Assembly (NCBI GenBank): GCA_964016885.1
Contig: OZ024741.1
Location: 232,748,001 to 232,812,000, forward strand
Direction: 5' to 3'
Source of the DNA: Eledone cirrhosa
Taxonomy: Eukaryota
Length of the DNA: 64,000 bases
Within the stretch, counting starts at the first letter, position 1. The number at the start of each line of letters is the position of its first letter. Made by a program: the position numbers and the translations under genes. The notes under the pieces were generated by a model that worked only from the letters and a program-made list of their open reading frames with translations, had not been told where the DNA came from and ran no database searches. Below, piece after piece: positions 1 through 56,973 of this stretch.

Positions 1-168
1 TTTGGCACAAGGCCAGCAAATACCCAGTGCATTACTGGTACTTTATTTTATCGACCCCGTAAGGATGAAATGCAAAGTCAACCTCGGCGGGATTTGTACT
101 CGGATCGTAAAGGGACGTAACTATGCTGGAAAGCATGGCGTCCGACTCTCTACCGATACTGCCAATCC
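1..168 (-). mobile_element. tRNA-derived SINE (octopus-type), nearly full length
   Basis: The reverse complement has an A-box TGGCAGTATCGG, a B-box-like GAGTACAAATCCC and the central block ...TTTCATCCTTACGGGGTCGATAAAATAAAGTACCAG; it matches the copy at 45841-46027. Confidence 0.9.
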
Positions 169-610
169 TGCTCACTATTTATACTTTGAGCTTGTAAATT
201 GCAGGGTATCAATATGAGTTAGTAACTCTGTATCTTATTTGTATTTTGGCTCCCTAACTAGTTGAGCTTATAACTTGGGTGTATTAAGGCTGTTATTTCT
301 AGCATATCTACTCACACCACTTCTAACGTCCAAGGCACGAGGTGAGATATTCATTCGTGTTGATTGTAGTTACATGTGTTTGTTCCATTTAATCTTATCT
401 CTCGCTGAGGAAATCCTACGGATTATCTGTTACAAACACAATTTTCAGGGCGAAACAGATTAAATCTCTAATCTGTCCGAGAGATGAAATAGTTATTGAG
501 ACGGTCTGTATATACATATATTATATATTTTACGTTTGCTTCAGGTTAAATCTATCAAACCAATGTGGTATTTCAACCCTCGTTATTTTAGACACTCAAT
601 TTATTACTGT

Positions 611-1236: not shown

Positions 1237-1349
1237 ATATATATATATTCACACAAATATATATATATATATATATATATATGCTCCCTGTTCACCTTCC
1301 AAACTCTCAGAGCTTGTGAGAATATATGCTACTTTCAAAAATACACAGT

Positions 1350-1814
1350 GACTGATCGGTTGATTTGCATATTAGCAGACTGGCTAATCAGTCAGATCTG
1401 CATATTAGCAGATCCACTGATCAGTCAGATTTGCATATCAGCAGACTGGCCAGTCAGTTTCCTGTATACGAGCGATAAATGGCTGGCTTTGCCAAATTCA
1501 AATAAAAAAAGAAAATGTCGCTCTACATGGCTGAAAACAATAAATGTAATCTGAGTTGTTCGTATATTAATAATAACAATAGCTCTGAAAGTTTGCCAGG
1601 TGAACAGTCAGCTGTACTGGTGAAGGGTGATACCCAAAAACATTAGTGTCTGCAGTTCTATTCGCATACCAACACAAGAGCAAGAATGAAGTGTTCATTC
1701 TACCAACATGGCTATAAAATTGAGGCTTGCTTTCATAATTGCAAACGAATCGAATGTTATTATTAATATTCGAAAACCTCAGATTACATTTATTGTATTC
1801 AGCCATGTAGAGCG

Positions 1815-1817
<3 letters not shown>
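1350..1817. repeat. Repeat with triplicated octamer block, internal inversion and decayed HHR
   Basis: ATTTGCATAT-type blocks at 1363-1440; about 1515-1575 is the inverse of about 1760-1817; the HHR-like CTGTA-CTGGTGA-GGGT/ACCC-AAAAACATTAGTGTC-TGCAG at about 1612-1655; a homolog lies at about 45680-46080. Confidence 0.6.
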
Positions 1818-1879
<62 letters not shown>

Positions 1880-8875: not shown

Positions 8876-9063
8876 CTTTAAAGTACTATAGCAAAGAAGG
8901 TGCGGTAAGATACCATGTGGACCATAACGTACCAGAGTTCTCGATATTTTGGATAAAAGAGTGGGTACAGAAAAGAAGTCATGTTCTCACTCTTTTTCTA
9001 TATTAATATATATATATATATACATTTATATAAATACACATATATATATACATATATATACAC

Positions 9064-9102
<39 letters not shown>

Positions 9103-9197
9103 TATGTATATATACATTTATATATACATATATATGCATATGTATATATACATATATATATATACATATATATATATGTATATATATATACATACAC

Positions 9198-9254
<57 letters not shown>

Positions 9255-9261
9255 CATACAC

Positions 9262-9304
<43 letters not shown>

Positions 9305-9334
9305 AATGTATGTATATATATATATATTATATAT

Positions 9335-11165
9335 TTGATTTTAAAAGAACTAAGGAAAAATTATAAAAAAGCCCCGGCTGAAGATCTTACAGACATCAAT
9401 AATGAGGCATATAAATTAATTGCAAAGTTAGGAATTGAAGGAAGAACCAAGTCTCTTATACCTAGACAGTCGCGGATCAATGTTAAGGAAGACCTGCCAG
9501 TTAGTCTGATTGCTCCATCCAAATCGGATATTGGAGTAATCAGTAAAAATATTATTGATAGAATTCTACCTATTTTGAAATTGAGGTCTAAATTGAGCTT
9601 GTGGAAGGATATAAATGAAGTGATTGAATGGTATAAAAATATAGATGATAAGAAAAACCATAAATTCATCCAGATGGACATAACAAACTATTACTCTTCC
9701 ATTACGCCTAACCTACTAAATAAGGCTTTATCATACGCTTACAAACATACGGATCTAACTACGGATGAAATTGATATCATATTAACTGCTAGAAGAACTC
9801 TAATTAACTTCAACAATGAGTATTGGACCCGCTCAGATAGAAATAGAAACTTCGACATTACCATGGGACTCAGCGCAAATCACGGATCTTCTGCGGATTT
9901 ACATCTTAGATATGATAAATAGAAAAATTACCGGTGGTTTATATAGGGACGATATTTTATTTACGGTTGTTAAACACAACAATATAGAACTAAATAGGGT
10001 AAAGTAAAATATAATTGAGTTCTTTAAAAATTATGACCTTAAAAATTACGACCTTAAACTAGAGGTAGAAAGTGGTACCAAAATAGTTAATTTCCTTGAT
10101 GTTACCCTTAACTTAAACTCTGGTTTGTATTGCCCTTTCCATAAGCCCAATGAAAACTTAAATTACGTTAGTTATTACTCTAATCACCCTAAATCTGTGA
10201 AAAACGCAATTGTAAATAGTATACAAAAGCGCATAACTAGAATATCTGCCAATAAATCAATATTTGATGAAAAAGCAGGATATTACAATGATGCGTTAAG
10301 AAAGACAGGTTACAAAAATAATATAGAATATATAGACAATAATAATCCTAGTCTTAATCCTGATAAAAATAATGGAATATATAAACCAAATTCTAAAAAT
10401 TCTAATAATTGTAATTCAAATACCTGTACTATGAATAAATCGGGGAAAAGAACCAGAACTAAATCAGTTATATGATCCCCCACCCCTGCTTCTGTAGCAG
10501 TAAGAACACCAATAGCTAATCTATTTTTTAAAGCTTTAGATAGTTCCTTCCCTAGTCAACATAAATACCACTCCATATTTAATAGACACACAATTAAACT
10601 GCCTTATTCTACAACTATGAATATGGCCCAAAACATCGCTAAACTAAATAGTATAATTCTAAACCAAAATTAACATAATGCTATTAATAATAGTGTTAAT
10701 ATAAATAATAATAAATCGAAATGTAATTGTAGAAATAAACCAGATTGCCCTCTGCAAAATAATTGTCTGTATAGAAATCTGGTGTATAAATGCACCGTAA
10801 AAACAAATAACAACACATACAACTACATAGGAGCAACTTCTTCGACATTTAAATCGAGATTTGCAAATCACAAATTCTAATTTTCGAATTATAATAGGAA
10901 GTCTTCGACTTCTTTATCACTACTTATATGGTCATTAAAAGAAAAAATGTTTAAATACTCGATCTTTTGGACGAAGCTTTGTAATAGTAAAATATATACG
11001 AACTCATCTATATCAACTAACTGCAACCTCTGCACAAAAGAGACCCTATTAATAATTACTAATTATGAAAACTTAATTAACAAAAAAAGGGGATTATTCT
11101 CAAACTGCCTTCATAAAGCTTTGTCTACATTCCAAGTCTCGCAAAAAGTCAGGAAAAAACACTAA
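9335..11165 (+). mobile_element. Penelope-like retroelement ORF (RT + C-terminal GIY-YIG), Naiad-like, 5'-truncated and frameshifted
   Basis: [39 protein letters not shown]; the endonuclease has CNCRNKPDCPL (CxCx5C), YIGATSSTFKSRFANH and CNLCTKE; begins at a (TA)n tract. Confidence 0.88.
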
Positions 11166-14146: not shown

Positions 14147-14720
14147 ATGGTATTAGGATTGGTGCTCTGAAATAGTGATGTATACAATGAATGTATCTAT
14201 AGTATATTTGGCAATATACCGTATGCTTAATTAAAAACATGTTGTAGACCATACGCTATCAGTTTTAATGTAGTGAGTATGTCGCTTACTTCTTTTCTTC
14301 AGCGAAAGAAGGGAGAGAAGCTAACAAACTGTTTGTTTCACGCTGTTGGCGATCATCAAAGCAACGTACTCCCCGCTTTCGCCGAAGATTATAGAAGCTG
14401 GGTTCTTATAGAATTCACGTTAAAACTGATAGCGTATGGTCTTCAAAATGTTTTTAATTAAGCATTCGGTATATTGTCAAATATACTATACATACATTCA
14501 TTGTATACATCGCTATTTCAGAGCCCCAATCCTAATACCTAATTTTTGCTGGACCGGTAATCGCTCTGTATAATCAGCTCCTGATTATTACTGGATCGAA
14601 TCTGACTCTGGATTCAAAAGTTCCTCTGATACGTCTAGTGATTTCGAAGCAAATTCTCTAGGACCATAGACTGCTCAACCTGCATACCGCCTATTGGGCG
14701 CATCCGAGCAACCTTACTGC
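14147..14720. repeat. Repeat with about 125-bp inverted arms (14148-14270 / 14418-14540) and a minus-strand HHR variant at 14320-14362
   Basis: The arms are reverse complements; minus strand GCT-TTGATGA-TCGC-CAACA-GCGT-GAAA-CAAAC-A-GTTTG-TT-AGC. Confidence 0.7.
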
Positions 14721-15512: not shown

Positions 15513-15550
<38 letters not shown>

Positions 15551-15555
<5 letters not shown>

Positions 15556-16438
15556 TGAAACAAAATGAAAACGAAATTTCATTTCTCACTCTTAGTATGG
15601 CACTTACTTAAATGTAAGTATGCATGTATACGTACATACATATATGTATACAGACGTACAGTAGCATGCACATATATATATATATATATACATATATACA
15701 TACATATGCATACAGGTACACATACATATATGCACGTATCAGTTTAGCGGCGCTAACGTCGCTTTGTTCGTTTGTAAACAAACTGAACAGCCTGAATTTA
15801 TGCCATACGGTGTTAAGGCAACCACGTCACCTTTTTGTTCAACACTGACACAGGAACGATGTACTAGTTTCAAGCTTGTTAGCTATCATCAGCACCGTTT
15901 ACCCATCTGCCAGATAGTTGAACGTTCGAAAGTATATACTTTCCTTATGAAAATTAACGGCTGAGCAGCCTAATTTGCATATTGAGTGAGTTAAATCGGT
16001 CAGGCATACCGAAAACGATAAATTGAAACAAAATGAAAACGAAATTTCATTTCTCACTCTTAGTATGGCACTTACTTAAATGTAAGTATGCATGTATACG
16101 TACATACATATATGTATACAGACGTACAGTAGCATGCACATATATATATATATATATACATATATACATACATATGCATACAGGTACACATACATATATG
16201 CACGTATCAGTTTAGCGGCGCTAACGTCGCTTTGTTCGTTTGTAAACAAACTGAACAGCCTGAATTTATGCCATACGGTGTTAAGGCAACCACGTCACCT
16301 TTTTGTTCAACACTGACACAGGAACGATGTACTAGTTTCAAGCTTGTTAGCTATCATCAGCACCGTTTACCCATCTGCCAGATAGTTGAACGTTCGAAAG
16401 TATATACTTTCCTTATGAAAATTAACGGCTGAGCAGCC
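15551..16438 (-). repeat. 468-bp HHR tandem repeat, left arm (about 1.9 units; HHRs at 15855-15899 and 16323-16367)
   Basis: Exact period of 468 (e.g. identical ORFs at 15565 and 16033); reverse complement of the right arm. Confidence 0.95.
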
Positions 16439-16517
16439 GTTAATTAGGCTGCTCAGCCGTTAATTTTCATAAGGAAAGTATATACTTTCGAACGTTCAAC
16501 TATCTGGCAGATGGGTA

Positions 16518-16562
16518 AACGGTGCTGATGATAGCTAACAAGCTTGAAACTAGTACATCGTT
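16518..16562 (+). ncRNA. Type I hammerhead ribozyme of the 468-bp unit (also 16986-17030, 17454-17498, 17922-17966, 18390-18434)
   Basis: AACGGTG-CTGATGA-T-AGCT-AACA-AGCT-T-GAAA-CTAG-TA-CATCGTT; 7-bp stem I, intact core, palindromic ACTAGT stem III; predicted cleavage after GUA at 16555. Confidence 0.88.
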
Positions 16563-16904
16563 CCTGTGTCAGTGTTGAACAAAAAGGTGACGTGGTTGCC
16601 TTAACACCGTATGGCATAAATTCAGGCTGTTCAGTTTGTTTACAAACGAACAAAGCGACGTTAGCGCCGCTAAACTGATACGTGCATATATGTATGTGTA
16701 CCTGTATGCATATGTATGTATATATGTATATATATATATATATATGTGCATGCTACTGTACGTCTGTATACATATATGTATGTACGTATACATGCATACT
16801 TACATTTAAGTAAGTGCCATACTAAGAGTGAGAAATGAAATTTCGTTTTCATTTTGTTTCAATTTATCGTTTTCGGTATGCCTGACCGATTTAACTCACT
16901 CAAT

Positions 16905-16912
16905 ATGCAAAT
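16905..16912 (+). promoter_or_regulatory. Octamer motif ATGCAAAT in each 468-bp unit (snRNA-type distal element candidate)
   Basis: Perfect octamer; a TGACGT at 17056 and a PSE-like CACCGTATGGCATAAATT at 17073-17090 lie downstream; function is inferred. Confidence 0.5.
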
Positions 16913-18672
16913 TAGGCTGCTCAGCCGTTAATTTTCATAAGGAAAGTATATACTTTCGAACGTTCAACTATCTGGCAGATGGGTAAACGGTGCTGATGAT
17001 AGCTAACAAGCTTGAAACTAGTACATCGTTCCTGTGTCAGTGTTGAACAAAAAGGTGACGTGGTTGCCTTAACACCGTATGGCATAAATTCAGGCTGTTC
17101 AGTTTGTTTACAAACGAACAAAGCGACGTTAGCGCCGCTAAACTGATACGTGCATATATGTATGTGTACCTGTATGCATATGTATGTATATATGTATATA
17201 TATATATATATATGTGCATGCTACTGTACGTCTGTATACATATATGTATGTACGTATACATGCATACTTACATTTAAGTAAGTGCCATACTAAGAGTGAG
17301 AAATGAAATTTCGTTTTCATTTTGTTTCAATTTATCGTTTTCGGTATGCCTGACCGATTTAACTCACTCAATATGCAAATTAGGCTGCTCAGCCGTTAAT
17401 TTTCATAAGGAAAGTATATACTTTCGAACGTTCAACTATCTGGCAGATGGGTAAACGGTGCTGATGATAGCTAACAAGCTTGAAACTAGTACATCGTTCC
17501 TGTGTCAGTGTTGAACAAAAAGGTGACGTGGTTGCCTTAACACCGTATGGCATAAATTCAGGCTGTTCAGTTTGTTTACAAACGAACAAAGCGACGTTAG
17601 CGCCGCTAAACTGATACGTGCATATATGTATGTGTACCTGTATGCATATGTATGTATATATGTATATATATATATATATATGTGCATGCTACTGTACGTC
17701 TGTATACATATATGTATGTACGTATACATGCATACTTACATTTAAGTAAGTGCCATACTAAGAGTGAGAAATGAAATTTCGTTTTCATTTTGTTTCAATT
17801 TATCGTTTTCGGTATGCCTGACCGATTTAACTCACTCAATATGCAAATTAGGCTGCTCAGCCGTTAATTTTCATAAGGAAAGTATATACTTTCGAACGTT
17901 CAACTATCTGGCAGATGGGTAAACGGTGCTGATGATAGCTAACAAGCTTGAAACTAGTACATCGTTCCTGTGTCAGTGTTGAACAAAAAGGTGACGTGGT
18001 TGCCTTAACACCGTATGGCATAAATTCAGGCTGTTCAGTTTGTTTACAAACGAACAAAGCGACGTTAGCGCCGCTAAACTGATACGTGCATATATGTATG
18101 TGTACCTGTATGCATATGTATGTATATATGTATATATATATATATATATGTGCATGCTACTGTACGTCTGTATACATATATGTATGTACGTATACATGCA
18201 TACTTACATTTAAGTAAGTGCCATACTAAGAGTGAGAAATGAAATTTCGTTTTCATTTTGTTTCAATTTATCGTTTTCGGTATGCCTGACCGATTTAACT
18301 CACTCAATATGCAAATTAGGCTGCTCAGCCGTTAATTTTCATAAGGAAAGTATATACTTTCGAACGTTCAACTATCTGGCAGATGGGTAAACGGTGCTGA
18401 TGATAGCTAACAAGCTTGAAACTAGTACATCGTTCCTGTGTCAGTGTTGAACAAAAAGGTGACGTGGTTGCCTTAACACCGTATGGCATAAATTCAGGCT
18501 GTTCAGTTTGTTTACAAACGAAAAAAGCGACGTTAGCGCCGCTAAACTGATACGTGCATATATGTATGTGTACCTGTATGCATATGTATGTATATATGTA
18601 TATATATATATATATATGTGCATGCTACTGTACGTCTGTATACATATATGTATGTACGTATACATGCATACT

Positions 18673-18745
<73 letters not shown>

Positions 18746-18747
18746 GT

Positions 18748-19220
<473 letters not shown>

Positions 19221-20404: not shown

Positions 20405-20579
20405 AGAAGTGGTTACACAACAGTTAGTTCACCATACCGAGAACAATTGTTTCACTTCAGCGGATCTTCAGCTCGGGATGTGCATGGTTATAAGAACCAT
20501 GCACATCCCGAGCTGAAGATCCGCTAAGGTGAAACAATTGTTCTCGGTATGGTGAACTAACTGTTGTGTAACTACTTCT
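20405..20579. repeat. Near-perfect palindrome containing two divergent HHRs (20437-20476 minus, 20508-20547 plus)
   Basis: CCGAG-CTGAAGA-TCC-GCTAA-GGT-GAAA-CAATTG-TT-CTCGG; the same sequence ends the PLE remnant at 42905-42990. Confidence 0.85.
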
Positions 20580-21833: not shown

Positions 21834-22934
21834 CTTTGAATAACTTTGAAATGTTTTGGCCAGAATTGGCCCAGGCCATGTCTAACTTAATAGCACCACC
21901 TGGCGAAGTCTTTCAATTCAGGATTTGGGCACCATGGCCCATTCGAGAAGAGAATTACTGTTTGCGGAGACATATCCGGGTGTGGGTGGTTTGTCCGGGA
22001 TTACTTGGAGGAATTGGTCCAAAGACTTCTTGAATTTTGTGTGGTCAGTTTCTGTTTTGACGTGTCCTGGTGTGATGTTGAAGAGAGCAGGGCCGATTGA
22101 GGTGAAATAATTGTGCCGTATTGTTGTTATGAGTTGCGATTTAGATTTTTGAATGGGACGGATAGCACGGGGCCCAAGCCTTGGGTGTATCTTGAAGGCG
22201 ATGCCAACATCATTTGGGCAGTGATGATGGAACATTTTCCACATCATGCAGATAATATAACGCTCACGGCGACGTTGGAGTGAGTAAAGTTTCAGGTTTT
22301 CTAATCGACCCCAGTAGTCAAGGTCTGACATGCCATCTATCTTTTTCGTGATTGCCCTTTGAGGAGCTTCAAGTTTCATGATACTTTGTTTCGTGTGGGG
22401 AGACCACAGTGGACAACAGTATTCAAGGTGTGGTCGGGCAAAAGTAGAGAAGAGAAGGATAATGGTGCGGGAATCTCTCGACTGGAAGGTTCTGAGGATC
22501 CAGGAACACATTCTGCGGGCCATGTCAACTTTGCTGCTTATATGCGTGGTCCAGCTTATGTTGCTGTCCACGGTTACTCCCAAGTCTCTGATGTTGTTAG
22601 ATGCCACGAGAGTTTCCCCGGAGGGAAGGGAGTACGGGAGTTTCAGAGCATCCTCTTTTCCAAAGTGGATCAGTTCGAATTTGTCTTCGTTCAGTAACAT
22701 GTTGTTCTTTTCTGCCCATTGGGTAACAGCCAGTAGGTCTGACTGAAGGCTTATCCGGTCATCCACGCCATTGATGACCTTTTGAAGCTTGGAATCATCA
22801 GCGAAAATTTTAATGTTGCTGTGTTTGATGATGTCAGTGATGTCATTAATATAGATGATGAAGAGAAGTGGGCCCAACACAGTGCCTTGTGGGACCCCAC
22901 TACTGACTTTGGCTGGGCTTGATTTGACTCCCTC

Positions 22935-22938
<4 letters not shown>
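21830..22938 (-). mobile_element. 5'-truncated CR1/L2-group LINE with uninterrupted RT C-terminal ORF (21918-22938)
   Basis: SGVPQGTVLGPLLFIIYIND, IFADDSK, DLGVTVDS, RPHLEYCCPLWSP, LYSLQRRRER; short 3' UTR ending in (TTCAAAGTTA)2; (TA)n on both sides. Confidence 0.9.
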
Positions 22939-23014
<76 letters not shown>

Positions 23015-23018
<4 letters not shown>

Positions 23019-23370
23019 AGCCAACTTGTGCAGCTTCATATGCAAATGAGATTAATCACCTCATTTACACAGACAAAAAAACTATATATTCTCGATCGAC
23101 TGTTTTCAAGTCCAGCTGTTGCAAGCGGTGGGAGGGACCGTCCTGAAGAAGGCCAGTCAAGCCTGAAATGCATAGACGGTTGTCCCCCTTGCTTCTGTTG
23201 GACACCATCAGAGGGCTTTAGTCCCGGTGTTTGCATAGCTACAGCTTCCTAAAACCGTGTGTCTTTAGAAATACGAAATTTTTATACATATTTGTATAAC
23301 GCTATGCTTGAAGCGAAATCCTATTTTTATTCTATTATAAGTTGAGCCAACTTATGCAGCTTCATATGTA
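23015..23370 (+). repeat. 326-bp unit plus terminal redundancy, with octamer (23040-23047) and intact HHR (23137-23180)
   Basis: GTTGAGCCAACTT.TGCAGCTTCATATG occurs at 23015 and 23341; HHR ACCGTC-CTGAAGA-AGGC-CAGTCAA-GCCT-GAAA-TGCA-TA-GACGGT. Confidence 0.8.
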
Positions 23371-23472
<102 letters not shown>

Positions 23473-27984: not shown

Positions 27985-30900
27985 TAACTTAAAAAACTTG
28001 ATTCAGTGGAATGATACGTGATGCCCAAAACACAGCTGTGGCGGACAGAATGGAGAAGGCGTTTCTCCGGAGGACGGCAAGACCAACGCACTGGAAAAGC
28101 CACTCCAATTCGCGGAGCTCACACTTGCGGCTGGCCAGTTCAGCGCCTATGGTAGTGAGTAGGGAGGTAGCCCTAGGGCCGAGGACACCAGAAGTCTCCA
28201 CTACCAAGGGGACAACCGCAAACCTGTCGGAGAGCGACCGGTATTTTAGGAGTTTGACCTCCTCAGCCCGATGTCCAGCAGAACCTGGGTTATTCACAGA
28301 CTACACCAGGTTGCGGCTGCAGAAAATCTCGGTGCAAGTGGCATCACATACGAGGGGTTTGCCACAGCGGTACGGAATGATGGTCATAGCCCCAAAGGCT
28401 TGTGCTGGGAAGGGAAGCCTGCAGCGTCCAATCCATGCTTTATGACCTCGTTGATAGCAGCATGGTGTGGCGGGCGGCCGGCCCTGTTGTGACAGGAAAT
28501 CGGATGGAGGCCGAAAGAGTCCACAGTGGATCCTCAGCGACATTGGTGTGGGTCGCAGATCCGGAGGCCGAGCTCAAGGAAGTACCGATGCGCAGGCTAT
28601 TGTTGTCTAGTTGCGGGCCAGTGGAGAAGGTGGGCAGGGCATGGAACGAGGCACCACTGTGGGGTTTGGAGGCCGCATGAAAATGGGCAAGGCGGTGCTG
28701 GTCGAGCTGGCGCATGAGCCTGTCTGAGGCCAGGATGCACTGGATGGCATCCCAAGTGCTTTGGGGGACTTGACGTCAGCAGGGGGAGAAGGAGGAGGGA
28801 CGTCTACTGGGCTAAGTCCAAGCCGGTCCCACATCTCGCAGGCGGCCTCACGTTCTCTGAACAGAGAGGGTTCTATTGTGTTTTGAAGAACCCTGGTTAT
28901 GAGGACGCGGCATGAGGTTACCGACGAAAGATACGACGGCAAAGCCAGTGAGATCGGTGATCGGAGACCAAGGCCGCAATACCTGACAGATAAAGAGGCC
29001 TATTGCCATCCAATGTCGTCAAACTTGACGGTACATATCTCCTCGGCTGCTGCTCGGATACAATTATCGAGGTCAGCGAGGATAGAGGCGTGGGTGTAGC
29101 ACGGAGCGCTGCGAAGGGTATAGAGGAGCTTCGGCATGGCGAACCAGTTCCTCAACAGAAAGAGAGCTGGGTGGCCGTCGATCAGGCACAGTTGGCTCGT
29201 GAGAGTCTAGAGTTGTTGGAACCTGGACCTAGGGTGGAGCGGATGGCTGGCGGGTGGATGGTTTGACCCGAGGATGAAGACATCCACTTTGGTAGTCACC
29301 TGTACCTGGTGGAGAGTGGACAGAATGTCAGCGACGGAGGCTGCAAAGCTCTCAGCATCATGACTGACATTCACCACCTCCGACTTGGCCGAGTTGACCT
29401 GGATGCCGATCCCGCCAGGGCAGGGACCACCGATTGTAGGTCATGGCAGACAGTCTGTACGGGCCCACCCAACGTAGCATCATTCAGATACCAAACGTTG
29501 AGAGGGGCCGTGATACTCCGGGAGATGTGGTCTATACCAAGGGCAAACAGGAGGGGGTCCCAAAGGGTCGCCCTGTTCGACCCCAGTAGCCGAAGGAATG
29601 ACCGTCAGCAGCAAGGAGAATGCTCGCGGATCCATACGACAGGTAGGCCAGTGGGTAGGCAGAGGCGGCTCGGCTGAGGCAGGCATCGAGCAGATGGTCC
29701 CGGAGTAAGCAGTTGAAGGTATTCCTCATGTCAAGCTTGACAATGATGTGCCTAGAGTCCCTGGATGCCGAATCCGGTGGGCAGCTGTTGAATAACTGCC
29801 TGGTTAAATGTGCGGCACCCTCACAACCACCGGACACACCGACACCAAGTTGCACCGGACTGAACTCCTCACCCAGTTCGGGTGTTTTCGACCTGCAGAC
29901 CACCTTGGCAGCCAGCCTCCGGAAGACATTGCCCACAGCGATAGGGCGTATGCCACCCTCTTTCTTCCTGAGGCTAGCCGAAAAAAAGAGGCCTCGGGCG
30001 TAGGGGTGCAGGGCGCCATGGATGAGCCTATTGGTGAGTGCCACAATTGCACTCCGAAGGCGGAGCTCGGCCTCAGTGGAGAGGTGGGATAGCAACTCCT
30101 TGATGTGGTTTGGAAGGGCACCATCAGCACATCCGCTGCTGCTAGCTGAGGAGTCGATGGCGGTCATTATGTCTGCGCCGGAAGCCACAAGGAGCAAGTG
30201 AGGACCAAGTGGGGGTATGGGTCTGAGATCAGTGGGTGGCTCAGGGTGCTTTAGTTGCAGGGCAGCGAGAGCCTTCTCGGTGGGTTGGAGGACAGTGTCC
30301 TCTGAGGCAACCACTCTGACTGCGGCCGAGACATCACCCATGATTAATTTAGATTTACGCGGTCGCGCAAACGCTTGGCGCTGGCCTCAGGGGTGGATGA
30401 TTAGGGGTACCCGAGGGTGGGGTGTGTGGCGTCCCTACGCATGCTTGGAATGGGCGCTTGCCCAAAAGGACAAAACATTGGACTTGACGCTGGCTGCTGT
30501 CAGCGCCAGATTTGGGGAGGCCGAGGGCGAGTGGAGCGAAATAAAAGAGTCGCTCCTAGTCGCTGGCTCGATTGGAGTCCCGGGCGTTCTCAATCGAGGA
30601 AGCGAGGGCATCGGTTACCGGCACCCGGGACGCTCTCGGGATCCTGAGTGAGATATTCCGGAGCCGCCTGAGCCGAGCAATGTTGACCAGTGTGGCTTGG
30701 GTATCAGGCAAGCTCGCTGTCTCATCTGGTTGTGCCAGACGGCCGTCGCTGGGCAGACGAGGGGAAGAGGTAGTTCCTGCATCTCCACGCTGCGATGGCA
30801 CTGGAAGCTCGACGTGTCAAGCCAACACAGGTGAGGTGGTGGAAGCAGCCGAATCCCCAACAGTTCCGGCCCCTCTTCCGTCTGTTCGTGGTGGTGCAAG

Positions 30901-37429: not shown

Positions 37430-40813
<3,384 letters not shown>

Positions 40814-40878
40814 GTTTGAATCATGGGGTTGTTTAGCTTTCACCGCATCAATAACACATCATGCATGGATAAGACAGC

Positions 40879-45651: not shown

Positions 45652-45840
45652 GTGCACATACACATACACACACAGGTAAACAGTATACTGTACTGATGAA
45701 GGATAATAACCCAGAAACATTAGTGATACCGTTCTGTTCATATGCGAACACAAGAGCAAGAATGTCGAGGTCATTCTACTGAAATGCCTTAAGAGGCTGT
45801 TTGCATAATTGCAAACAAATCGAATATTATTATTAATATT

Positions 45841-46027
45841 GGTGGATTGGCAGTATCGGTAGAGGGTCGGACGCCATGCTTTCCAGCATAGTTACGTCCC
45901 TTTACGATCTGAGTTCAAATCCCGCCGAGGTTGACTTTGCCTTTCATCCTTACGGGGTCGATAAAATAAAGTACCAGTAATGCACTGGGTAATTGCTGGC
46001 CTTGTGCCTAAAGTAGAAACAATTATT
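45841..46027 (+). mobile_element. tRNA-derived SINE, full length, inserted into an older repeat
   Basis: A-box TGGCAGTATCGG and B-box GAGTTCAAATCCC; the flanks match the uninterrupted sequence at 1730-1815. Confidence 0.92.
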
Positions 46028-55500: not shown

Positions 55501-56117
55501 CCATTGGGCATCTTCACTTTCTGTTAGCCTACTATTTCATCTGCTAAATCGCTTGCGTCCCCAATATTTACATTGTGTACATTGTATGGAATTTATGCCT
55601 ACTTCGTTTCTACATATCGAGCAGGGCCACTTAACTGAAGAAATGTGGTCATATCATGTCTCCTACCAACTAGAACTTTCATTTGGACAAATTTTACTCT
55701 CATATATATATGTGTATATGTGTATGTGTGTGTGCGCGTGTGTGTAAATTGTTATAATATGGGAGGGTCATACTGCCAATAAAAGAATAAATAAAAACAC
55801 CTGTTTGTTTTCATTCTATTTATTACAAATATCCGGTTGGTTTGTTTAATAACAGATGTTTGTTTATTTATTGTCAAAACTCTTTCGTCACACATTGTGT
55901 GATCTTCCCAGTAACTGAATTTATATTTTATATCTCACCTTTGTTCTGTCCTACACCATCTAGCGCTACCCGTCAGCTTTCAAAATTCATAGCTAGAAGA
56001 CTTTTAAATGTTTATTTGTAAACATACCGTATATCATTAGATATACGAAATTTACATATTTATATGCATACAGCTATGTCGAAATGAAAATTGTAATTCT
56101 CTCTATATATATTATAT

Positions 56118-56398
56118 ATATCTAAAATTAATTAAATTTAATTAAATTAATTAATTTAATTAAAGTTAGGGCGTCATGTCCGAGACATCCGCCTTATCCA
56201 CCGTAGAATAAACTCAAAGATTCCAATGAATAGATCCGAGCATTTTATATCAACTAGAAATTGATTGACATAAAATGCTGTTGATATAAAATGCTCGGAT
56301 ATATTCATTGGAATCTATGAGCCTATTCTACGGTGGATATGGCGCATGTCTCGGACATGACTCCCTAAATTTAATTTAATTTAATTAATTTTAGATAT
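56118..56398. repeat. Foldback palindrome (about 130-bp arms)
   Basis: GTCATGTCCGAGACAT...CCGAGCATTTTATATCAAC / GTTGATATAAAATGCTCGG...ATGTCTCGGACATGAC. Confidence 0.85.
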
Positions 56399-56973
56399 GT
56401 AAACGGCTCCTTAATAGTAGAGCTTATTCAGTTGAAAGGACTCGGCTGCTATTTATAGCTGTCGACCACCCTATTCACGCCAATGTGGTGACGCTAGGAT
56501 GTTGTTAGTAGTTTTAGAAATGCAACACGTGCGATGGCTCACTCGCAGATTTGCATTTGATGTGTAAACACAGATCGTTAAATCCTCCCCCTTGCTGAAG
56601 ATCCAAGATTTGACTACTGTGACTTAACGGTGAAATATATTTCTTAAATGAAATATATACAAGGGGGATTAATCATTTTTTAAAAAGGTAATATTTGAGC
56701 TCTAGTTAAACTTTAATTAGTTACCTACATAACTATGTGTGATTACACATTTTACAAATTATCCCATGTGATTGTTTCATGTGTTTATTTTAAATATATG
56801 TATGTCAATCAATTTCTAGTTGATATATTATATATGCATTTATGTAAATGTATACATACGCCTATCAATGTCTGCTTCAGTCAATGTATTGATGTGTGTA
56901 GGCTCGTTGCTTGAATACGAACATCTTGCACAAAACAAACAAACAAACATGTGTTTCGCACTTTTCTTTTCAG

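What the first reader, a model, noticed from the sequence alone, without database searches (positions are those of the whole stretch)
16905..17090. snRNA-type promoter layout inside the 468-bp unit (octamer, HHR, then PSE-like element)
Seen: a perfect ATGCAAAT, the HHR 81 bp later, TGACGT, and CACCGTATGGCATAAATT 168 bp after the octamer. Established: snRNA genes use an octamer-containing distal element roughly 150-200 bp upstream of a PSE, and newt satellite 2 is transcribed from such elements. Inference: each unit drives transcription of the next, so the promoter is only propagated in tandem or circular form. The PSE match is loose and judged against the vertebrate consensus.
Basis: partly seen in the sequence, partly recalled or inferred. 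Interest (0 to 1): 0.7.

Follow-up and report, generated by a model that had tools for sequence, protein, structure and literature searches.

The report
Ribozyme repeat with octamer–TATA promoter
This is a small self-cleaving-RNA retroelement whose copies keep an octamer site and a TATA-like box just in front of the ribozyme, which points to a built-in promoter, though probably not the snRNA-type one first proposed.

Summary
The 468-bp unit is a retrozyme-type element with a type I hammerhead, backed by compensatory base changes, in head-to-head arrays inside (TA)n. The PSE call fails the tests available. It matches two human PSEs at chance level (9/19, 9/15; sites as good occur once per 37 bases of the window). 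Its core is one arm of the unit's only perfect long-range 8-bp helix, and a related family keeps that helix through three double changes while losing the PSE-like core. The octamer is supported: ATATGCAAAT is invariant in three diverged families in this window. Best reading: an octamer–TATA–initiator Pol II promoter starting near 16977, 47 nt before the cleavage site, not near 17125–17145. No transcription data, no species PSE and no copies outside the window were available. A review says animal retrozymes seem to lack promoters, so this is a testable new variant. Interest 0.5.

The parts
16903..16912 (+). Octamer (16905-16912) with its two preceding bases; probable POU-factor site, about -72 from the predicted start
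   Evidence: 10 of 10 columns invariant in families A, B and C/F; all 8 copies of this 10-mer in the window lie in these families, 0.75 expected by shuffle
16947..16954 (+).
   Evidence: Best non-ribozyme A-B block upstream of the ribozyme, 16/20, reached by 1 of 1000 shuffles; 42/43/42 bp after the octamer in A/B/F; 6-7 of 8 matches to a recalled TATA consensus
16976..16977 (+). Initiator-like CA; predicted transcription start at A16977 (inferred)
   Evidence: CA at +29 (A), +30 (B), +30 (C plus copy) from the TATA-like box; absent in decayed copy F; copy C45693 begins at this offset
16986..17030 (+). Type I hammerhead ribozyme: 7-bp stem I, 4-bp stem II behind a U-U pair, 2-bp palindromic stem III (dimer type); cleavage after 17023 (GUA)
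   Evidence: 6 of 13 pairs with a change on both sides among 4 relatives; stem III palindromic in A and B
17052..17070 (+).
   Evidence: Predicted in A and, with different sequence, at the matching place in family C; the hexamer is not kept in B
17073..17090 (+).
   Evidence: Chance-level match to human PSEs; pair probability 1.0 for 17077-17083 and 0.62 for 17084; three double changes in family C
17283..17290 (+). 3' arm of that helix
   Evidence: With its partner, the only 2 of 338 core 8-mers that have a perfect distant complement; such a partner occurs in 68 of 5000 shuffled units
16442..18677 (+). Family A plus array, 4.8 units of 468 bp, 5 ribozymes, 4 octamers, one substitution among copies; ends in (TA)n
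15550..16438 (-). Family A minus array, 1.9 units, 2 ribozymes, 1 octamer; head-to-head with the plus array; ends in (TA)n
   Evidence: 889-bp mirror run
16420..16464 (.). Junction of the two arrays at a small self-complementary hairpin; it cuts the octamer of both central copies
   Evidence: Sequence; the mechanism is inferred
23015..23371 (+). Family B: one 326-bp unit plus about 30 bp terminal redundancy in (TA)n; octamer 23040, TATA-like 23083, hammerhead 23136-23181
   Evidence: global score 123.5 against a shuffle maximum of 101 in 200 shuffles
1283..1575 (-). Family C minus copy (F): three 33-bp repeats with two perfect octamers and one variant, TATA-like box at 1328-1321; ends just before the ribozyme
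1576..1818 (+). Family C plus copy: decayed hammerhead at 1617, helix 1706-1713 with 1801-1808, no CCGT core
   Evidence: homology to A downstream of the ribozyme reached by 3 of 1000 shuffles
45673..45845 (+). Second family C copy, 5' end at the predicted start site, decayed hammerhead at 45693
55935..56108 (+). Decayed B-like fragment (D); keeps ACCGT as the arm of a perfect 8-bp hairpin; no octamer region
   Evidence: B-D alignment reached by 0 of 1000 shuffles

Best explanation
The 468-bp unit is a non-autonomous, hammerhead-bearing retroelement (non-LTR retrozyme type) with an internal mRNA-type Pol II promoter placed just 5' of the ribozyme: octamer at about -72, TATA-like box at -30, start at about A16977. 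Inferred cycle: a POU factor and TBP start Pol II 9 nt before stem I. The transcript runs through successive units, paired hammerheads cleave after 17023 and 17491 and remove the 47-nt capped leader, and the 468-nt monomer is ligated into a self-paired circle. A Penelope-like RT/endonuclease copies the circle more than once round into a (TA)n site, which puts the promoter (at the monomer's 3' end) back in front of the next ribozyme. Shown: the motifs, their conservation and spacing, the covariation, the array geometry. Inferred: binding, start site, polymerase, cleavage, circles, mobilising partner.
For: Octamer 10-mer invariant in A, B and F; a run of 10 invariant columns arose in 45 of 100,000 column permutations. 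Octamer plus TATA-like box: 7 matches in the window, all in these families, 0 in 100 shuffles (pattern written after the alignment). Octamer-TATA spacing 42/43/42 and TATA-CA spacing +29/+30/+30 stay fixed while TATA-to-ribozyme varies 46/60/50. The octamer is invariant although its pairing partner differs at 2 of 8 positions between A and B and it pairs differently in F. F has multiplied the octamer as a 33-bp repeat. Copy C45693 starts at the predicted start. A T4 run at 17314 would stop Pol III before the next ribozyme. Helix at the PSE-like site: 3 double changes between A and C, predicted independently in C. Hammerhead covariation. Inverted 5' copy, (TA)n targets and a 30-40 bp tail are described PLE traits (PMC8557442). 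A broken RT/GIY-YIG element lies in the window.
Against: No transcript, cap or binding data. Only three families from one window, related by descent; F was found with a profile that contained the octamer, and the A-F match upstream of the octamer is not significant (109 of 1000). The TATA-like box matches the recalled consensus at only 6-7 of 8 in an AT-rich genome; F has C at its first position and lacks the CA. The octamer is also a hairpin arm in A and B. ACCGT is kept in 3 of 5 homologous sites (A, B, D), including two unpaired bases; a post hoc register gives 14/20 against B (28 of 2000 shuffles) and 11/14 against D (11 of 2000). The B/D helix register is manual and MAFFT does not reproduce it. 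Both family C copies are decayed. The A ribozyme has U-U where G10.1-C11.1 is usual.
Confidence: 0.55

Rival explanations
1. One reading: an snRNA-type promoter with the octamer as distal element, a PSE at 17073 and a start near 17125-17145, as in newt satellite 2.
For: Octamer conserved. ACCGT present in A, B and D at 169 and 214 bp after the octamer in A and B, compatible with DSE about 200 bp and PSE 40-70 bp upstream of a start (PMC11696126 passage). Third-highest peak of the A-B profile. PSEs are species- or taxon-specific (PMC9841428 passage), so a poor match to human is not decisive. Newt precedent (PMC2220036 passage).
Against: Chance-level match to human PSEs. The best-anywhere test of the block gives 159 of 1000. 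The core is lost in both family C copies, and in the one that extends far enough the helix is kept by double changes. It does not explain the fixed octamer-TATA spacing. No 3'-box-like match to a recalled consensus.
Confidence: 0.1
2. No internal promoter: the element is transcribed by read-through from flanking DNA, and the octamer and TATA-like blocks are kept as RNA features (hairpin arms, or sites for the ligase or the mobilising RT).
For: A review states that metazoan retrozymes do not seem to harbour promoters (PMC7761336 passage). The octamer is a hairpin arm with high pair probability in A and partly in B. The junction of array A and the 3' end of B both fall inside the octamer.
Against: The invariant block is exactly a known DNA-binding motif, invariant on one arm only. 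Octamer, TATA-like box and CA sit at core-promoter spacing in three families. The TATA-like block is palindromic in A but not in B, so pairing does not explain it.
Confidence: 0.25
3. A compact U6/H1-like (type 3, Pol III) promoter: octamer enhancer, a taxon-specific PSE between or overlapping it, and the TATA box, with the same start near 16977.
For: Type 3 promoters are PSE plus TATA; three further columns (TCA) are invariant between octamer and TATA-like box.
Against: The interval matches human PSEs at only 7/19 or less (U6) and 7/15 or less (H1) and is poorly conserved. A T4 run at 17314 would end a Pol III transcript 336 nt after the start, before the second ribozyme, so no unit-length circle could form.
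Confidence: 0.1

Closest known systems
Metazoan non-LTR retrozymes (PMC7229834, PMC7761336)
   Same: Type I hammerhead in short tandem non-coding repeats, low GC, predicted self-paired circle, coexistence with Penelope-like elements.
   Different: Unit of 468 bp is above the 170-400 nt reported. A conserved octamer-TATA-initiator layout, where the review sees no promoter. Head-to-head arrays in (TA)n. U-U at 10.1-11.1.
Newt satellite 2 (Coats et al. 1994; title and a citing passage seen, details recalled)
   Same: Tandem hammerhead repeat with dimer-type stem III and an internal octamer-containing Pol II promoter. From memory only, unverified: the newt start also lies a short way 5' of the cleavage site.
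   Different: The newt promoter is octamer plus PSE (snRNA type). Here no PSE is supported; the octamer is at about -72 with a TATA-like box. Sequence homology was not testable.
Pseudo-LTRs of Penelope-like elements (PMC4209133, PMC8557442)
   Same: Hammerhead with short palindromic helix III, partial tandems, an inverted 5'-truncated copy, (TA)n targets, a tail of about 30 bp (family B), start site inside the repeat.
   Different: No ORF. No sequence link to the broken PLE at 38693-40820 was found. The ribozyme is canonical-like (7-bp helix I, no extra base after A9), not minimal.
Octamer-TATA Pol II promoters such as immunoglobulin V and histone H2B (own knowledge; the paper read, PMC3575799, gave no spacing)
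   Same: Octamer a few tens of bases 5' of a TATA box.
   Different: Here inside a mobile repeat of an invertebrate-looking genome; factor binding untested.

Membership tests
snRNA-type promoter (DSE + PSE) | Octamer-containing distal element about 200 bp upstream of the start | tested here: inconclusive
snRNA-type promoter (DSE + PSE) | PSE resembling vertebrate PSEs | tested here: not met
   9/19 and 9/15; one site per 37 bases scores as well
snRNA-type promoter (DSE + PSE) | PSE resembling this species' own U1/U2/U6 PSE | not testable with these tools
   No snRNA gene in the window at gathering score or among the 150 of 288 weak matches listed; no mollusc PSE found in searches
snRNA-type promoter (DSE + PSE) | PSE sequence conserved among related promoters | tested here: inconclusive
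   ACCGT in 3 of 5 homologous sites, with variation that follows base pairing
snRNA-type promoter (DSE + PSE) | SNAPc dependence and a capped start 40-70 bp after the PSE | not testable with these tools
   Needs CAGE, ChIP or reporters
snRNA-type promoter (DSE + PSE) | SPH/ZNF143 site beside the octamer | not tested
Metazoan non-LTR retrozyme | Type I hammerhead in every repeat | tested here: met
   7 copies; core intact; covariation; below Rfam gathering
Metazoan non-LTR retrozyme | Tandem non-coding repeats of low GC (<45%) | tested here: met
   GC 0.365 over 16001-18000; the only frame of 120 aa or more touching the array is a microsatellite frame
Metazoan non-LTR retrozyme | Monomer of about 170-400 nt | tested here: inconclusive
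   A is 468, outside the reported range, owing to an AT-rich tract; B is 326, inside
Metazoan non-LTR retrozyme | Highly self-paired predicted circle | tested here: met
   68% paired; z -8.3 for A, inflated by (TA)-rich palindromes, and -2.0 for B, 60 shuffles each
Metazoan non-LTR retrozyme | Self-cleavage and abundant circular RNA | not testable with these tools
   Needs in vitro assay and RNA data
Penelope-like element | RT and GIY-YIG ORF | tested here: not met
   No such ORF in or next to the array
Penelope-like element | Tandem plus inverted 5' copy, microsatellite target, 30-40 bp tail | tested here: met
   against PMC8557442 passages; this indicates the mobiliser, not membership

The most novel reading that the evidence does not exclude
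A group of invertebrate retrozymes carries its own POU-octamer/TATA/initiator Pol II promoter just 5' of the hammerhead. The ribozyme removes the capped leader and rolling reverse transcription of the circle rebuilds the promoter in each copy. This would be a second, independent solution (after the newt's snRNA-type promoter) to how ribozyme circles are transcribed, and could tie their expression to POU factors.
Probability: 0.45. Interest if true: 0.7.

Novelty: new variant of a known kind. Interest (0 to 1): 0.5.

Why it matters
Animal retrozymes are abundantly expressed in soma and germ line (PMC7229834 Discussion), yet a review says they seem to lack promoters and suggests read-through (PMC7761336). 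The exceptions I saw cited are newt satellite 2 and the schistosome satellite. A promoter layout conserved across three diverged families, with a start predicted to within a base or two, makes the question testable with one 5' RACE and three point mutants. It also warns that PSE-like calls in these repeats can be RNA helix arms.

Tried and rejected
PSE at 17073 scored against human U6 and H1 PSEs: chance level. A PSE between octamer and TATA-like box: no match. TGACGT as a conserved site: rejected. Rfam: nothing at gathering; the listed weak matches are mostly microsatellite hairpins; family B's ribozyme got no Rfam match. ARAGORN: 0 genes. One scan of bacterial and archaeal genomes with a shared ribozyme pattern gave 1 hit, L001, which by my reading is the end of a bacterial coding gene with no other similarity; discarded. 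Assembly mirror artefact: rejected because the mirror stops at the element's end and the flanks differ. First covariance model R1 had a one-column error in the structure and was not used; R2 replaced it. MAFFT did not give my manual B/D helix register, so only the A-C comparison is relied on. Host identification: two protein searches named no close host; the organism stays unidentified, and my impression of an octopus-like genome is from memory of its repeats only. Ten paper searches: none gave a mollusc PSE, the newt promoter layout (paper not held), the octamer-TATA spacing or a retrozyme paper that mentions an octamer among those listed. Metagenome and viral contig collections and any eukaryote genome were not available, so copy number and relatives outside the window are unchecked.

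Full report
Observation. The four motifs are at the stated places. They lie in a 468-bp unit present as 4.8 copies on the plus strand (16442-18677) and 1.9 copies on the minus strand (15550-16438), joined head-to-head and bounded by (TA)n on both sides. The plus copies differ by one substitution, which suggests a recent insertion or a collapsed assembly. The flanks are not mirrored, so it is not a fold-back artefact. The junction cuts the octamer of the two central copies: 7 ribozymes but 5 octamers.

The ribozyme. It is a type I hammerhead with a 7-bp stem I, a 4-bp stem II behind a U-U pair, and a 2-bp stem III inside a 6-base palindrome. That is the dimer-dependent form described for metazoan hammerheads (PMC4209133 passages). 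Rfam does not call it at gathering score (E 0.042 in a narrow scan). Among four relatives in the window, 6 of 13 pairs change on both sides, against at most 1 when partners are slid. Two of the four rows are decayed and partly misaligned, and the shuffle control is only moderate (39 of 500 for that measure). Tandem, non-coding, low-GC units with such a ribozyme fit non-LTR retrozymes (PMC7229834 passages and Discussion; its supplement could not be read and may list similar elements).

A perfect octamer occurs in 292 of 5000 shuffled units on either strand. The PSE-like site scores 9/19 against human U6 and 9/15 against H1 (motifs from PMC1790723). It is not the best site in the unit, and 3235 of 120,900 window sites score as well. 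Given an octamer, 168 of 169 shuffles also had such a site at a suitable distance. These are unweighted counts against two PSEs. PSEs are taxon-specific (PMC9841428 passage), and no PSE for this animal could be had.

Relatives in the window. A hammerhead pattern scan and a profile search gave family B (326-bp unit, 23015-23371), a decayed B-like piece D (about 55935-56108), and family C: a head-to-head pair in (TA)n at 1283-1818 and a copy at 45673. B is homologous to A (global score 123.5, best of 200 shuffles 101). C matches A downstream of the ribozyme (3 of 1000 shuffles). The minus copy F is tied to C by a 43-base match (0 of 1000) and a 65-base inverted match at 92%, but its match to A upstream of the octamer is not significant (109 of 1000).

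What is conserved. In A, B and F the ten bases ATATGCAAAT are invariant, among 32 invariant of 92 ungapped columns; 45 of 100,000 column permutations give such a run. F was found with a profile containing the octamer, so this overstates the case. All 8 copies of the 10-mer in the window lie in these families. A TATA-like block follows at 42, 43 and 42 bp; it is the strongest A-B block upstream of the ribozyme (16/20, 1 of 1000). A CA follows at +29, +30 and +30 in A, B and the C plus copy, but not in F, while the distance from that block to the ribozyme core varies 46, 60, 50. CA occurs at 0.067 per position, so this is modest support. Copy C45693 begins at that offset, next to a (CA)n tract (one case). 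The octamer is a hairpin arm in A and B, but the partner arm differs at 2 of 8 positions and in F it pairs elsewhere.

What the PSE-like site is. In the folded circle 17077-17084 pairs with 17283-17290. These are the only 2 of 338 core 8-mers with a perfect distant complement. Family C has the same helix, predicted on its own, with double changes at 3 of 8 pairs that remove the CCGT core. Random decay would not change both arms in step. In B and D, ACCGT begins a local 8-bp hairpin with further double changes, but that register is manual and MAFFT placed it otherwise. Against this reading: ACCGT is kept in 3 of 5 homologous sites, and a register chosen afterwards gives 14/20 against B (28 of 2000) and 11/14 against D (11 of 2000). 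A dual role as helix and PSE is not excluded. TGACGT is not kept in B and lies in a predicted hairpin shared with C.

Mechanism (inferred). Octamer at -72, TATA-like box at -30 and a start at A16977 give a Pol II transcript that begins 9 nt before stem I and 47 nt before the cleavage site. Pol III would stop at the T4 run at 17314, before the next ribozyme. Cleavage at successive ribozymes releases a 468-nt monomer with the promoter at its 3' end; ligation and more-than-unit reverse transcription restore promoter-before-ribozyme. The outer ends of the two arrays fall at different unit positions (372 and 431), each at an AT overlap with (TA)n, as expected if both target ends primed on a circle and the two cDNAs joined at the hairpin at 16420-16464. 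Inverted 5' copies, (TA)n targets and 30-40 bp tails are Penelope-like traits (PMC8557442 passages). A broken element at 38693-40820 has a relative with RT and GIY-YIG domains; no direct link to it was shown.

Novelty. The element type is known. An internal promoter is reported for newt satellite 2 (title and a citing passage in PMC2220036; the paper was not held, so its layout is recalled only). A review states that metazoan retrozymes seem to lack promoters (PMC7761336 passage). In some searches no listed paper described an octamer-TATA promoter in a retrozyme; this covers the open library only, and only the listed rows. Other papers seen as passages gave nothing decisive: PMC2770079, PMC11696126 (DSE and PSE positions), PMC13282606 (with its supplement searched for five terms; its repeat library is held elsewhere), PMC5054213, PMC6466107, PMC3575799. 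Verdict: observation confirmed, interpretation partly supported, new variant of a known kind, interest 0.5.

Noticed in passing
window 395-490 (+): A separate, well-formed type I hammerhead with long stems I and III (GUC site); fold z-score -3.4, 0 of 200 shuffles as stable; no octamer within 330 bp.
   Followed up: partly
window 20434-20550: Two near-identical hammerheads head-to-head (cores 20471 minus, 20513 plus) with palindromic stem III, like an inverted pseudo-LTR.
   Followed up: partly
window 1020 (+), 2112 (+), 50101 (+), 37523 (-), 7156 (-)/7278 (+): Further minimal or decayed hammerhead-like motifs; 37523 lies 3' of the broken Penelope-like ORF; none has an octamer within 110 bp upstream.
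   Followed up: partly
window 14150-14500 (-): Decayed hammerhead (14368-14314, E 0.001 with model R2) between long inverted repeats; by eye, similar sequence follows the A array at about 18860-18940.
   Followed up: partly
window 38693-40820 (-): Broken Penelope-like element: RT fragments and a C-terminal region whose relative P0122 has RT and GIY-YIG domains; candidate mobiliser.
   Followed up: partly
window 16905-16925 and 17078-17102: The sequence after the octamer is repeated after the PSE-like core (local alignment reached by 8 of 2000 shuffles); unexplained, perhaps an old internal duplication or template switch.
   Followed up: partly
window 56090-56560: Inverted-repeat element with an octamer on the minus strand (56556-56549) and a good TATA-like box about 95 bp further on; no link to the ribozyme families was seen.
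   Followed up: no
window 8957-10475 (+), 21918-23051 (-), 29532-30386 (-): Other retroelement ORF fragments; 21918-23051 is an RT with 1007 relatives at E 1e-30 or better.
   Followed up: no
window 1-170, 2280-2370, 45850-46020: A repeated SINE-like sequence; from memory it resembles octopus repeats, which was not verified by any search.
   Followed up: no
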